From Octopus sinensis (lineage: Eukaryota): a DNA stretch of 64,000 bases. Under the pieces are notes generated by a model. That model was not told where the DNA came from. It made no database searches and saw nothing but the letters and a program-made list of their open reading frames with translations. The stretch covers positions 56,668,001 to 56,732,000 of the forward strand of contig NC_043005.1 of assembly GCF_006345805.1 (NCBI RefSeq), written 5' to 3'. Position 1 is the first letter of the stretch. The number at the start of each line of letters is the position of its first letter. This document shows positions 21,409 through 28,657 of this stretch, piece after piece. A program made the position numbers and the translations under genes.

Positions 21409-21809
21409 TATTTCTTTACTACCCACAAGGGGCTAAACACAGACAGGACAAACAAGGACAGACAAACGGATTAAGTCGATTATATCGGCCCCAGTGCGTA
21501 ACTGGTACTTATTTAATCGACCCCGAAAGGATGAAAGGCAAAATCGACCACGGCGGAATTTGAACTCAGAACGTAAAGACAGACGAAATACCTATTTCTT
21601 TATTACCCACAAGGGGCTAAACAAGGACAGACATAGGTATTAAGTCGATTACATCGACCCCAGTGCGTAACTGGTACTTATTAATCGACCCCGAAAGGAT
21701 GAAAGGCAAAGTCGACCACGGCGGAATTTGAACTCAGAACGTAAAGACAGACGAAAAACCGCTAAGCATTTCGCCCGGCGTGCTAACGTTTCTGCCAGCT
21801 CGCCGCCTT
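21409..21809 (-). mobile_element. tRNA-derived SINE dimer (Tx1-tailed family)
   Basis: Head GGCGGCGAGCTGGCAGAAACGTTAGC...GAGTTCAAATTCC (A/B-box-like), core GCCTTTCATCCTTTCGGGGTCGAT, tail GCCCCTTGTGGGTARTAAAGAAATA. The second unit begins at GGTATTTCGTCTG. Imperfect TSD GGTATCT(G/T)TGTGTGTGT. Confidence 0.9.
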
Positions 21810-22005
21810 ATACACACACAAAGATACCAGCTGACAATCAGCGTTATATTTTTCATTTATTTATTACAAGAATGATCTGCCATTTATTGATGTAAATCAT
21901 ATTTTAGATCCAATGAATAATAATATATATTACATAATATCTTTGTAATTCACTGATTTTCTTTACAGTATTATCTTTTCTATTCACTTCAACATTGAAG
22001 TTTAA

Positions 22006-22126
22006 TTTGTCAAAATATGTTCGTCGCTTTAAGACCGCGACCTGTTCACTGACAAAAATCCGTGCTGCACGGATTTTTGTCAGTGAACAGGTCGCGGTCT
22101 TAAAGCGACGAAAATATTTTGACAAA
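22006..22126. repeat. 121-bp near-perfect palindrome (fold-back/MITE-like)
   Basis: 60-bp arms with a 1-nt centre at 22066 and one mismatch. Confidence 0.95.
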
Positions 22127-22127
22127 A

Positions 22128-22189
22128 GGCGGCGAGCTGGCAGAATCGTTAGCACGTCGGGCGAAATGCGTAGCCGTATTTCGTCTGCC
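22128..22189 (+). mobile_element. 5' part of a tRNA-derived SINE, split by Tx1 copy B
   Basis: GGCGGCGAGCTGGCAGAATCGTTAGCACGTCGGGCGAAATGCGTAGCCGTATTTCGTCTGCC; the SINE continues at 27493. Confidence 0.92.
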
Positions 22190-22645
22190 ACACGTGTGTT
22201 CGTGGTAAGAATTGCTGTTAATATTGTTAATAACTGTTGTTTCTTGTTAAACTGTTGAATAACTTAACTGTTGGAGTTTTCAATTGAAAACACTTAGTGC
22301 TTGTGGTAGCACGCGTTGTTCATTCCCCTTTTGTGGGGAAGAATGTCGTCTAGCATGGAGCCTACCGTTGGAGCAGAAATACTTGTTTCTCCTGTTTAGA
22401 GGAGGAAAAACATGTCCGGCGAGGAGCCAACTACAGACAGGGAAATAAGGGTTTCCCCCGCTACAAGAAGGAATAGCAGAGTGGATAATATATTTGATTT
22501 TTTTGGAGATGTGTCTGAGAGCTCGTCAGAACTTTCACCAGAAAAGTTTCCGACTTTGCCAGAGAACAAAGGCATTGTGTCGAAGTGAATAATTGATGTA
22601 CCTAGCATCCAGATAGAACCAAAAAATGGAAAAAGAAGTTTTGCG

Positions 22646-23878
22646 TTGGCTGCTGGGGGTGGAACCCGGCTACTGTCGACGAATAAAAGCGACTTTATGA
22701 AATACAGCCAAATGATGAAAATAACTGACAACGGTGTGAAAATTGAACCTCCGCAAAAGTTATTACAAGAAGAAAAGCAAAAAACAATAATTTTCAAAAC
22801 ATATTGTCTACAAAAAAGAAAAATTGAAAGAATGTCAGAAGAGAAAATAGAAAAGTGCTTAAAGCCAATATGGGGCGACGTAGTTTATCTGAGAAGAGGC
22901 AAAAAAATCGGAACGGTGGAAGTAAGGTTCACCAATAAAAAAATAGCACACAAGAACTCAGTTGAAACGCTGAAAACGAACGACGTGGAGCTCATCCCCT
23001 ATTATATGGGGATGAGGACGTCCAGAATAAAAATTACAAGGGTCCCGCCAGAAGTCGACCCAATGTGGTTGTTGGCGGCAGTCCTAATCAAAGAGGTAGA
23101 AAAGATTACTCTCCTCCAGGCTACCGCTACGGAAAACCCACGCTGGAATGATCAAACAATTAATCTTCTCATTCAAGCGGACCCTAAAATAATTCAAGCA
23201 ATTCCCGAGTCAATTGAGGTAGGGGAGGAGAGCATCGTGGTGTTTGTTGAGGGCCGAAAACCTCGATGTTTTTTATGTGGTCAATTAGGCCACATTCGAA
23301 GGAACTGCAAGGAAAATGAAGAAGAGGAGGAAGAGGAGAAAAAAGACAAAGAGGAAGAAGATAAAGAAGAAACAGATGAGAAAAAAACAACAAACAAAAG
23401 AAAAATACAACCAGCAACCCAGCCGAAAGCGGCGACTACTACAGAACAACGACCAAAAAAGACTGCCAGAAGAGAAAAAGAAGAAAAAGGCATAATAGCC
23501 GTATACACTAAAGATACTGAGCTCATGAGAGACATTCAACTGATAAAGACTGTAAAAAAAATAGATAACCTTTCAGAGGAATTTATCAATTACGACATAT
23601 ATGAAGTCTCAAATAAGACTTATAGAATTCTACAAAGCAAATACAGAAAGACTGTATCTTCATTAAGATTATATTTTAACAAGTCGATATTTCATGGATT
23701 ACCAGCCCCGATCCCGCGAGAAAAGGAAAAGGTGGAGATTCCCCCTCCACCTGATAATTCTGTGTCGGTGGTGAGACGGGATTTTGACAAATCTATTTCC
23801 CAAAACCGTCTACCTCCGACCCTGGATCAAAAAAGGTGGAGGGACCCCTCCACCGGACAATCCTGTTTATACAGGTAA
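22646..23878 (+). CDS. Tx1 ORF1 (RRM-like region + CCHC zinc knuckle + acidic/basic tail); true start uncertain
   Basis: 410-aa open frame containing VEGRKPRCFLCGQLGHIRRNC; it stops 3 nt before the ORF2 ATG. Confidence 0.85.
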   Translation: MAAGGGTRLLSTNKSDFMKYSQMMKITDNGVKIEPPQKLLQEEKQKTIIFKTYCLQKRKIERMSEEKIEKCLKPIWGDVVYLRRGKKIGTVEVRFTNKKIAHKNSVETLKTNDVELIPYYMGMRTSRIKITRVPPEVDPMWLLAAVLIKEVEKITLLQATATENPRWNDQTINLLIQADPKIIQAIPESIEVGEESIVVFVEGRKPRCFLCGQLGHIRRNCKENEEEEEEEKKDKEEEDKEETDEKKTTNKRKIQPATQPKAATTTEQRPKKTARREKEEKGIIAVYTKDTELMRDIQLIKTVKKIDNLSEEFINYDIYEVSNKTYRILQSKYRKTVSSLRLYFNKSIFHGLPAPIPREKEKVEIPPPPDNSVSVVRRDFDKSISQNRLPPTLDQKRWRDPSTGQSCLYR

Positions 23879-23881
23879 GTC

Positions 23882-26800: not shown

Positions 26801-27253
26801 TTCCCGTTTGGGATAAGCTCGCAAGACATGGTAAACGTCAGTCGCCGACCTGTCCAAGATGCGGGGGGGGGCAGGGAAACCATCCCTCACGCTATTGTTC
26901 AGTGTCCGGAGATAACTGAAATGTGGGCTTATGCTGAACATCTGTTGTCCGGCGAAGTAAGAGTACGGCTGTCGACTGAGTCAATTATAAAAATTGACCC
27001 ACCGGAAGTTCTAACGAACGAAGGTAAGAATTGTTTTCTCACGGTTGTAGCAATAGCAAAAGAGGCTGTATGGAAGACTAGGATAAAAGGAATTAAGACA
27101 GGCAACTTTATGTCTGGTCACAATTTACGATCTTTTTTCTCTTTTCATTTGAAAAGGAAACTGTGGCTGGAGAAGAGGTGTCTGTCGGAATGTACGTTCC
27201 AAAAGAGATGGAAGTATGTTGCACGAGTGTTGTGCGTGCAAGGAACCGTGTGA
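23882..27253 (+). pseudogene. Tx1 ORF2 (APE-RT-zinc finger), with frameshifts and a deletion in the APE region
   Basis: MSIHIGCLNVHGL, VATET, YLDRI, SDHK, KSPGLDGLPYELY, LDQSKAFDRVDH, RQGCPLSPLLY, FADDIT, TCPRCG..ETIPHAIVQC. Two of the frameshifts fall in G homopolymers (~25074 and ~26864). Confidence 0.93.
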
Positions 27254-27492
27254 ATAGACGAAAAAAATAAATAAATAAAAAGGTATCAGCGGTAGATCGG
27301 GGCTTGTGGGATCGGAGCGTAACTTGATCATCACTTCATTTGTATTGTTTCTGTACTGTGTATTCCATTCGATTTTTATGTATTGTATTTTATTTTTGAA
27401 GTCACATTTATGTAAAAACATATCGATTCACTGATCCCATCAGTTGTACTGCCCATATCTATGTTTGGCCCCCGATGGGCAATAAAGAAATT

Positions 27493-27846
27493 CGTATTTC
27501 GTCTGCCGTTACGTAGAGTTCAAATTCCGCCGAGGTCGAGGCAGAAACGTTAGCACGCTGGGCGAAATGCATAGCCGTATTTCGTCTGCTGATACGTTCT
27601 GAGTTCAAATTCCGCCGAGGTCGAGGCAGAAACGTTAGCATGCCGGGCGAAATGCGGAGCCGTATTTCGTCTGCCGATACGTTCTGAGTTCAAATTCCGC
27701 CGAGGTTGACTTTGCCTTTCATCTTTTCATGGTCGATTAAATAAGTACCAGTTACGCACTGGGGTCGATATAATCGACTTAATCCGTTTGTCTGTCCTTG
27801 TTTGTCCTCTCTGTGTTTAGCCCCTTGTGGGTAGTAAAGAAATAGA
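27493..27846 (+). mobile_element. 3' part of the split SINE, with two extra tandem ~84-bp tRNA-head units
   Basis: The head remainder is followed by GGCAGAAACGTTAGC...GAGGTCGA twice, then the core and the Tx1-like tail. Confidence 0.9.
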
Positions 27847-27934
27847 TTTAAAAAATAATTTTTTGTAACTACTCTGTAGGCCAGTCGAAAAGGAAAGTGT
27901 AAATTGTACACAAATTAGAGTGGCCGGCTTCACA

Positions 27935-28150
27935 GAACACAAATTTGTGACCAATACAGGTGACCTGACAGGAACCCAGTTACTAGAAGTGAACGAGTCG
28001 CTCTTAGTGCGACAAGGTTCAAGAGACAGATTAGCGAATTAGATAAACAGGTTTCAGCGGAGGCAATCGTTAACAACAAATGGTAGTTCACTCTAAAAAG
28101 AGTGATTACAAAGGAATCAACTACGAGTAGCAAAATAGTAGCGATAAAGA
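27935..28150 (+). pseudogene. Old Tx1 ORF2 fragment (APE-RT linker)
   Basis: Degenerate HKFVT...ISELDKQVSAEAIVNNKW*FTLKRVI, which matches TIINNKWWYALKRAI in copy B. Confidence 0.65.
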
Positions 28151-28260
28151 AAATAGGGGAATGTAGGTCTGAAATTCTCTGACGTGATGACCACATTTTT
28201 CAGACCTACATTCTCCAAGTTACCCATCTCCAAGTCACCGTCTCTATGCCTACAATTACT

Positions 28261-28484
28261 TATTTCTTTACTACCCACAAGGGGCTAAACACAGAGAGCA
28301 TAGACAAACGGATTAAGTCGATGATATCGACCCCCGTGCGAAACTGGTACTTTATTTATCGACCCCGAAAGGATGAAAGGCAAAGTCGACCTCGGCGGAA
28401 TTTGAACTTAGAATGTAGCGGCAGACGAAATACCGCTAAGTATTTCGCCCGGTGTGCTAACGTTTCTGCCAGCTCGCCGCCTTA
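28261..28484 (-). mobile_element. tRNA-derived SINE monomer (Tx1-tailed family)
   Basis: Same head, core and tail; 17-bp TSD CTATGCCTACAATTACT (28244-28260 and 28485-28501). Confidence 0.92.
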
Positions 28485-28657
28485 CTATGCCTACAATTAC
28501 TCTCACCCCATTATCAGGAATAGTAGGAGTGTGTTATAAAGGGCAGTAGCGAAGACATACAGAGACAGAGAAAGAAAAAGAGAGACAAAGAGATTTAGGG
28601 AGAGCTGATGTTTTATTAAAAGTAGTAGGGCTGATGGTGGCAGTGAAAGTAATAATA

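What the first reader, a model, noticed from the sequence alone, without database searches (positions are those of the whole stretch)
21409..28501. Self-targeting LINE/SINE pair: a Tx1 element inserts into a SINE that carries a Tx1-like 3' tail
Seen in the sequence: (a) Tx1 copy B sits inside the tRNA head of a SINE with a perfect 15-bp TSD, CGTATTTCGTCTGCC. (b) The SINE 3' end TCTGTGTTTAGCCCCTTGTGGGTAGTAAAGAAAT (27810-27843) matches the Tx1 3' end TCTATGTTTGGCCCCCGATGGGCAATAAAGAAAT (27458-27491) at 27/34 ungapped positions, keeping the GCCC/GGG(C/T) stem. (c) In the SINE dimer at 21409-21809, one unit's tail is joined to GGTATTTCGTCTG, the same head position that the Tx1 used. Established: SINEs borrow the 3' tail of their partner LINE, and Tx1-clade elements are often sequence-specific (Keno in U2 snRNA, Dewa in tRNA arrays, Kibi/Koshi in microsatellites). 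Inference: this Tx1 lineage mobilises the SINE and preferentially targets it, so each new SINE creates a new landing site. I do not know of this being described, but I could not search.
Basis: partly seen in the sequence, partly recalled or inferred. Interest (0 to 1): 0.82.

Follow-up and report, generated by a model that had tools for sequence, protein, structure and literature searches.

The report
LINE lineage aiming at its SINE
A family of long jumping genes lands almost only at one base inside the front end of a very common short repeat, and that repeat ends in a related tail and piles up at the same base in its own relatives, so it is likely copied by this LINE group and keeps making new landing sites for both.

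Summary
Observation confirmed; the TSD is 16 bp (SINE positions 51-66), not 15. Genome-wide, the LINE (Tx1-B) is site-specific: 30 of 30 young 3' ends, 29 of 30 5' ends and 37 of 39 ends of an older subfamily sit at SINE position 51. A C/G target variant matches on both sides in 19 of 19 full-length copies, so these are independent insertions. The SINE uses the same nick: 34,598 exact tail-to-position-51 junctions, about 40 of the first 100 tails, with the downstream unit older. The partner claim needs correcting. The tail motif is shared across this LINE group and fits a sister lineage, Tx1-H, better (38/40 columns against 32-33/40), and Tx1-H was never at position 51 (0 of 48). The older Tx1-B subfamily matches the SINE in site, G bias and roughly in age, so it is the likeliest enzyme source; mobilisation is inferred, not shown. 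A second LINE family targets a different SINE (28 of 30). Closest precedent: crocodilian Tx1-Mar/SINEU; self-targeting is the twist, not found in 9 paper searches (Repbase/Dfam unseen). The scan noted this system several times before, here and in other genomes.

The parts
22126..22190 (+). 5' part (positions 2-66) of the target SINE; C-type head with A-box-like motif
   Evidence: blastn to other window copies; sequence
22175..22190 (+). 5' copy of the 16-bp target-site duplication (last base A instead of G)
22191..27492 (+). Full-length but defective Tx1-B LINE, 96.7% identical to the intact natural copy L132
22344..23848 (+). ORF1 (CCHC zinc knuckle); two in-frame stops against L132
   Evidence: Pfam PF00098; tblastn
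23882..27253 (+). ORF2 (APE endonuclease, reverse transcriptase, zf-RVT), in five pieces through four frameshifts
27458..27492 (+). Tx1-B 3' tail with AATAAA, homologous to the SINE tail
27493..27508 (+). 3' copy of the target-site duplication
27493..27844 (+). 3' remainder of the target SINE, with an 84-bp segment (about positions 17-100) repeated so that three target sites lie in a row; tail at 27810-27844
21593..21811 (-). SINE dimer, unit 1 (head to tail)
21409..21592 (-). SINE dimer, unit 2 (starts at position 51)
21392..21828 (-). Dimer with its flanking 17-bp TSD (21392-21408 and 21812-21828), which starts GGTAT
28261..28484 (-). SINE monomer in non-SINE DNA with a perfect 17-bp TSD (28244-28260 and 28485-28501)

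Best explanation
Tx1-B is a LINE lineage that inserts at one base (position 50/51) of an abundant SINE's head with a 16-bp duplication, and the SINE, whose tail comes from the same LINE group, is likely copied by this group's enzymes and so often lands at the same base in its own relatives. Inferred mechanism: the APE endonuclease nicks the bottom strand at 50/51 and the top strand at 66/67, and reverse transcription starts on the shared tail. A LINE copy splits the SINE. A SINE copy is homologous to the target's head, so its 5' end usually anneals seamlessly and gives head-body-tail followed by headless 184-bp units; each joint recreates the site. The older, G-biased Tx1-B subfamily is the likeliest enzyme source for position-51 SINE insertions. 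The tail itself was probably taken from the sister lineage Tx1-H or a common ancestor, and a SINE tail subtype that prefers position 18 likely rides on Tx1-H-type enzymes. Shown: sites, duplications, counts, age order, tail homology. Inferred: nicking, trans-mobilisation, which subfamily did it.
For: Young Tx1-B 3' ends at position 51: 30 of 30 loci (of 40 scored, 327 candidates; the query held no SINE sequence). 5' ends: 29 of 30. Older subfamily: 37 of 39. C/G at position 51 concordant in 19 of 19 copies with both ends, 8 of them exact 16-bp duplications, a private variant on both sides in L129. Intact APE-RT-zf-RVT ORF2 in 4 of 19 copies. SINE tail joined to position 51: 34,598 exact matches beside 97,317 exact tails; 40 of the first 100 tails, counted by eye. 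Textbook head(1-66)-full SINE-(51 onward) structures exist, e.g. L212, L213, L253, L257. Last unit more diverged than first: 26 vs 16 of 45 arrays ending in the Tx1-type tail (p=0.024), 18 vs 3 of 21 ending in another tail (p=0.0003); in the latter the head tracks the last unit (rho 0.50, p=0.02). SINE monomers have 12-23-bp TSDs with T at +3 in 29 of 33 and A at +4 in 28 of 33. Older Tx1-B is G-biased like the SINE (34 G, 2 C vs 72 G, 0 C; p=0.11) and C-type SINEs are younger (0.029 vs 0.044, p=0.027). Tx1-B and Tx1-H fall in one supported group (SH-aLRT 99).
Against: The SINE tail is closer to Tx1-H (35-38 of 40 columns for L455) than to Tx1-B (30-34), and Tx1-H-type tails were at position 51 in 0 of 48. 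Young Tx1-B takes C-type heads (14 of 24) while SINE junctions do not (0 of 72; 258 C-type junctions genome-wide with a longer pattern). About 60 of the first 100 SINE tails are elsewhere, far looser than Tx1-B. Most arrays lack the duplicated head that plain insertion predicts, and head and junction types often disagree. Two of three truncated older copies (L503, L504) have no SINE head at their 5' end. The age test used loci picked by patterns and a yardstick built from Tx1-tailed units, which inflates the other-tail result; in Tx1-tailed arrays the head-to-last-unit correlation is not significant (p=0.10). Whole-array TSDs were found in only 31 of 66. The tail stems fold no better than shuffles. 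Some loci may be duplicate contigs (L009/L015).
Confidence: 0.62

Rival explanations
1. RNA-guided aim: the SINE is copied by a loosely specific relative (Tx1-H type). SINE transcripts run past the tail into the next unit, and that extension pairs with nicked DNA at matching sites, so a master copy passes its own landing site to its progeny.
For: Tail subtype predicts the site: tails with TAATAAAG are followed by G in 14 of 14, tails with CAATAAAG by GGTA in 0 of 20 and by position 51 in 0 of 20 vs 40 of 80 (first 100, by eye; p=1e-5); the CAA type gave 28 position-51 and about 60 position-18 junctions of 100. 181 of 266 units lack a TTTT terminator. Tail is closest to Tx1-H. Target-RNA pairing raises accuracy for SART1Bm and R1Bm (PMC7265360, passages).
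Against: Where the first five TSD bases differ, the 3' copy is no closer to the motif than the 5' copy (4 vs 5 of 12). A Tx1-H subgroup with the CAA tail itself lands on AGAA sites, so different partners explain the subtype effect too. The exact match to the Tx1-B nick would be a coincidence unless the nick comes from Tx1-B.
Confidence: 0.25
2. SINE arrays arise without insertion into SINEs: by template jumping between SINE RNAs, by copying of dimeric masters, or by unequal recombination; only the LINE is targeted.
For: Most arrays have one head and no duplicated target; some arrays have near-identical units and head-only 65-bp repeats occur (L258, L255), so secondary expansion does happen.
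Against: The last unit is older and is often a relative with another tail (15 junction units; 21 arrays); full head duplications with 16-bp TSDs exist; the junction equals the LINE's nick to the base.
Confidence: 0.08
3. Hitchhiking: the LINE with its flanking SINE halves moves as one composite element, so the shared flanks show descent and not targeting.
For: The 5' copy of the duplication is sometimes unlike the 3' copy near the element (position 64 discordant in 6 of 19 vs position 51 in 0 of 19, p=0.02), so the RNA may carry a short SINE-derived leader. C/G is somewhat clustered on the tree (8 changes vs 11.9 shuffled).
Against: Near-identical LINE copies sit in C- and in G-type heads; targets include other-tailed SINEs, tail junctions and truncated heads with unrelated outer flanks; the 5'-truncated copy L003 also lies behind a SINE head.
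Confidence: 0.03

Closest known systems
Crocodilian Tx1-Mar LINEs with SINEU-1/2/3 (Kojima 2015, PMC4494074; parts 1, 3 and 4 of 5, section 14 and passages read)
   Same: Tx1-type LINE and a SINE share insertion sites inside another repeat, at two fixed positions; the SINE is looser than the LINE (13-90% on target); tandem SINE insertions sandwich a 16-bp TSD; different LINE families are thought to serve different SINEs.
   Different: There the target is an unrelated Mariner transposon, and no LINE sharing the SINEU-1 3' end was found. Here the target is the SINE family's own head, the tail is LINE-derived, and 5' homology hides the junction.
Tx1L of Xenopus in Tx1D; Keno (U2), Kibi/Koshi (microsatellites) (as described in PMC4494074 and PMC1950540, passages; primary papers not read)
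   Same: APE-type LINE with near-absolute site choice in a multicopy sequence; Tx1L endonuclease nicks its target in vitro.
   Different: Targets are not SINEs and are not produced by the element's own machinery.
SINE/LINE pairs with shared 3' tails (Ohshima 2013, PMC3747384; section 1.4 and passages read)
   Same: SINE ends in a sequence homologous to a LINE 3' end.
   Different: That survey found only 3 SINEs with L1-clade tails among 58 pairs; here the tail is short (about 40 nt) and shared by several sister families.
R1Bm/SART1Bm target-RNA annealing (PMC7265360, passages) and R2 co-transcription with its target (discussed in PMC4494074)
   Same: Target sequence in the RNA can steer priming; a possible reading of the subtype-specific sites and of the RNA-like 5' junctions.
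   Different: Not shown here; those targets are rDNA or telomere repeats.
Octopus SINEs OK, OR1, OR2 (Ohshima and Okada 1994; seen only as references in PMC3531059 and PMC4758252)
   Same: Likely includes this family (recalled lead).
   Different: Sequences could not be compared.

Membership tests
L1/Tx1 group non-LTR retrotransposon | ORF1 plus ORF2 with APE endonuclease, reverse transcriptase and C-terminal zinc motif | tested here: met
   Natural copy L132: PF03372, PF00078, PF13966 in ORF2, PF00098 in ORF1; best solved-structure matches are L1 endonuclease. The usual GDFN motif reads GDSN in 19 Tx1-B copies.
L1/Tx1 group non-LTR retrotransposon | Target-site duplication and 5'-truncated copies | tested here: met
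   16-bp TSDs; truncated L003
Tx1 clade (strict) | RT phylogeny with named Tx1, Keno, Koshi references | not testable with these tools
   Homologs found were unnamed; my tree holds only genome copies and four unnamed proteins. The label Tx1 rests on architecture and behaviour.
Target-specific LINE (Kojima 2015 criterion: over 20% of flanks of one type) | Flanks dominated by one sequence | tested here: met
   30 of 30, 29 of 30, 37 of 39
Target-specific LINE | Endonuclease nicks the target in vitro | not testable with these tools
   needs biochemistry
tRNA-derived SINE (SINE2) | Short, interspersed, over 100 copies, TSDs | tested here: met
   224-234 nt, 97,317 exact tails, TSDs in 36 of 50 monomers
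tRNA-derived SINE (SINE2) | Head with at least 60% identity to a tRNA; Pol III transcription | tested here: inconclusive
   No ARAGORN or Rfam match; A/B-box-like motifs by eye only; no direct tRNA alignment made
Stringent SINE/LINE pair | 3' end shared with the partner LINE | tested here: met
   Met at group level: 38 of 40 columns with Tx1-H, 32-34 with Tx1-B
Stringent SINE/LINE pair | Tail-dependent trans-mobilisation | not testable with these tools
   needs a cell assay
Tx1-Mar/SINEU | Target is Mariner-N4; SINE head from U1/U2 | tested here: not met
   Target is the SINE head; no U1/U2 match in Rfam. Works like it, is not a member.

The most novel reading that the evidence does not exclude
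A radiation of Tx1-type LINEs has divided up the genome's SINE heads as landing sites (Tx1-B at position 51, ORF1-only and Tx1-H derivatives at position 18, Tx1-E in a second SINE), and the SINE closes the loop: it is copied by these enzymes into its own head, its read-through RNA carries the landing site of its master, and target choice is thus inherited with the RNA. Tens of thousands of tandem SINE arrays would be the product of a self-feeding target supply.
Probability: 0.3. Interest if true: 0.82.

Novelty: new variant of a known kind. Interest (0 to 1): 0.62.

Why it matters
Site-specific LINEs usually depend on a fixed host repeat (rDNA, snRNA genes, microsatellites, an old transposon). 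Here the target is likely made by the LINE group's own enzymes, so supply grows with activity. That would explain why 40 of the first 100 tails examined of a very abundant SINE sit in head-to-tail arrays, which matters for repeat annotation and for dating SINE waves in these genomes. It adds a rare L1-group SINE partner. Intact natural copies of a young family, plus sister families with other targets, make it directly testable whether site choice sits in the endonuclease or in the RNA.

Tried and rejected
Two negative-pattern searches for a LINE carrying the SINE's exact tail gave only mutated or truncated SINEs in 30 loci each (578 and 466 matches); the sister lineage turned up later through position-18 junctions. 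A repeated sequence after position 66 (L241-L250) looked like a second inserter but is a frozen SINE fragment inside another multicopy element. I first read the G-only SINE junctions as evidence against Tx1-B; the older subfamily and the younger age of C-type heads removed most of that argument. The test for RNA-templated first TSD bases in monomers was null. Tail folding was not significant. The Rfam microRNA hit at 22027-22105 is only a long hairpin, below the family threshold. Expression: no RNA holder listed; contigs of guessed-RNA runs bridge head and LINE 5' end in three of four runs, which shows no transcript. ESM Atlas gave no named family. Tx1-E shares 26 nt with the SINE just upstream of the terminal tail but ends differently and targets another SINE; direction of that exchange is unresolved. 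Old-subfamily copies L517 and L542 end in SINE-type bases; template switching and later recombination explain this equally, so it was not used. Paper searches found no description of this system. PMC13282606, PMC8967140, PMC4758252, PMC3531059, PMC5786205 and PMC8869645 were seen as passages only; the 2015 octopus genome paper was not held; no supplements were read, and repeat libraries in them could name these families.
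Full report
Observation. The LINE runs from 22191 to 27492 on the plus strand inside a SINE whose first 66 positions lie upstream and whose remainder (position 51 onward) lies downstream. The window copy is 96.7% identical to an intact natural copy (L132) and has two stops in ORF1 and four frameshifts in ORF2. 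L132 encodes a 509-aa ORF1 with a CCHC knuckle and a 1133-aa ORF2 with APE endonuclease, reverse transcriptase and zf-RVT. I keep the name Tx1-B; strict clade membership could not be tested because no named references were available. The window lies in a 2.72-Gb assembly; 'octopus' is untested.

LINE targeting. A query of the LINE's last 262 bases, with no SINE sequence, gave 327 candidates, 40 scored and 30 loci; all 30, the window among them, are followed by SINE position 51 (23 C-type, 7 G-type). A query of the 5' end gave 144 candidates and 30 loci; 29 are preceded by the target up to position 66, and L035 has a head with a deletion. Of 20 full-length copies fetched, 19 had both ends; the C/G variant at position 51 agreed in 19 of 19, 8 duplications were exact over 16 bp, and L129 has a private variant on both sides. 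Targets include ordinary heads, relatives with another tail, and a tail junction inside an array. In a tree of 42 of 45 3' regions (L003, L026, L129 dropped as short), near-identical copies sit in both target types. This excludes a composite element moving as a unit. Discordance rises towards the element's 5' end (position 64: 6 of 19; position 51: 0 of 19; p=0.02), which suggests that the RNA carries a short SINE-derived leader; that is inference.

SINE self-insertion. The exact junction tail-to-position-51 occurs 34,598 times; the exact tail 97,317 times. Among the first 100 tails of a pattern that prints the downstream bases, 40 continue at position 51 and about 5 at position 18 (counted by eye). 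The usual array is one full SINE followed by headless units. Some loci show the textbook form with a duplicated head. In 45 arrays ending in the Tx1-type tail the last unit was more diverged than the first in 26 and less in 16 (p=0.024); in 21 ending in another tail, 18 against 3 (p=0.0003), and there the head tracked the last unit. These loci were picked by patterns and the yardstick favours Tx1-tailed units, so the second figure is inflated. A TSD around the whole array was found in 31 of 66. Monomers carry TSDs (36 of 50) of 12-23 bp that start with a loose motif resembling the position-51 site (33 anchored cases). The simplest reading is insertion into an older SINE with a 5' joint hidden by homology. 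Head and junction types often disagree, so the crossover point must vary, and some arrays grew later by duplication.

Which LINE is the partner? The motif TCT(A/G)TGT...AATAAAGAAA ends at least five families seen here, so 27/34 does not single out Tx1-B. Two direct searches for a LINE with the SINE's exact tail failed. Position-18 junctions led to a sister lineage, Tx1-H: 283 candidates, 75-89% DNA identity among the scored copies, ORF2 about 70% identical to Tx1-B, in one supported group with it. Its tail matches the SINE at up to 38 of the last 40 columns, against 32-33 for Tx1-B with the same SINE copy. But 0 of 48 Tx1-H-type tails are at position 51 and 2 are at position 18. In one census of position-51 junctions (703 matches, first 100 read by eye), young Tx1-B used 14 C and 10 G heads and the SINE 0 C and 72 G. 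That census also exposed an older Tx1-B subfamily (88-91% to the young one over the long matches; 356 candidates). Of its 39 further 3' ends, 37 are at position 51 (34 G, 2 C, 1 A), one is elsewhere and one is deleted into the SINE. C-type SINE monomers are younger than G-type. So the lineage has held this site for a long time, and its older wave agrees with the SINE in site and G bias; its copies are 85-93% identical to L504, roughly in line with 4-6% divergence per SINE unit. Against this, two of three truncated old copies lack a SINE head at the 5' end.

Subtypes. One or two bases in the SINE tail predict where it lands: the CAATAAAG type avoids GGTA sites and prefers position 18 and AGAA sites; the TAATAAAG type is followed by G in 14 of 14. 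A Tx1-H subgroup with the same CAA tail also lands on AGAA. Either different partners serve different subtypes, or read-through RNA pairs with the nicked target, as reported for SART1Bm and R1Bm (PMC7265360, passages). Most units have no TTTT terminator (85 of 266 have one), but a direct test in monomers was null.

Beyond the finding. A very young family, Tx1-E (745 candidates, 99% identical among those scored, about 58-60% protein identity to Tx1-B), inserts into the head of a different SINE in 28 of 30 loci, with a 15-16-bp TSD at the one full copy inspected. ORF1-only elements with related tails stack at position 18. SINE heads are therefore a general target class for this LINE group.

Comparison and novelty. 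The closest case is crocodilian Tx1-Mar with SINEU, which share sites in a Mariner transposon (PMC4494074). L1-group tails on SINEs are rare (3 of 58 pairs; PMC3747384). Nine paper searches showed no LINE that targets its passenger SINE and no account of this system; Repbase, Dfam, the 1994 octopus SINE paper and all supplements were not seen. Earlier notes of this scan describe the same system on other DNA; they are not independent support. Verdict: real, genome-wide, a new variant of a known kind; targeting shown, mobilisation inferred.

Noticed in passing
L233/L292 (G000:C1:8.28 Mb) and L311-L340: Young LINE family Tx1-E inserts into the head of a second SINE family (28 of 30); its 3' UTR shares 26 nt with the first SINE just upstream of the terminal tail.
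   Followed up: partly
L401, L402, L407, L409, L411, L427, L428: ORF1-only and internally deleted elements with related tails sit at SINE position 18, some in head-to-tail stacks.
   Followed up: partly
window about 2455-8700, minus strand; also L296: Another LINE (Tx1-A) with a related tail lies in an (ATCT)n microsatellite; L296 ends in the same repeat.
   Followed up: partly
window about 22006-22126: Near-perfect palindrome centred on 22066 directly before the target SINE, a possible foldback element; many similar contigs in public runs.
   Followed up: no
window 27540-27707: 84-bp tandem duplication of SINE positions about 17-100 right after the LINE, giving three target sites.
   Followed up: no
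SINE positions about 34-66 (window 28419-28451, minus): The target lies in a predicted hairpin; the linked T46/G51 and G46/C51 variants both keep the pair (whole-fragment z -1.7).
   Followed up: partly
L258, L251, L252, L256, L219: Head-only tandem repeats (positions 1-66, 65-66-bp period), up to six copies.
   Followed up: no
L132 ORF2 and 18 other copies: Endonuclease motif reads GDSN in Tx1-B, GDFN in its sisters.
   Followed up: no
L241-L250: A multicopy element carries a frozen fragment of the SINE head with identical flanks.
   Followed up: partly
window 43301-46104, minus strand: ORF1-like frame (386 aa) followed by a separate RT frame that looks Penelope-like (recalled resemblance; weak PF00078 hit).
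   Followed up: no
window 49649-53119 and 55526-58969: Near-identical segments about 5.85 kb apart: a recent tandem duplication or an assembly artefact.
   Followed up: no
L517, L542: Older Tx1-B bodies ending in SINE-type tail bases.
   Followed up: no
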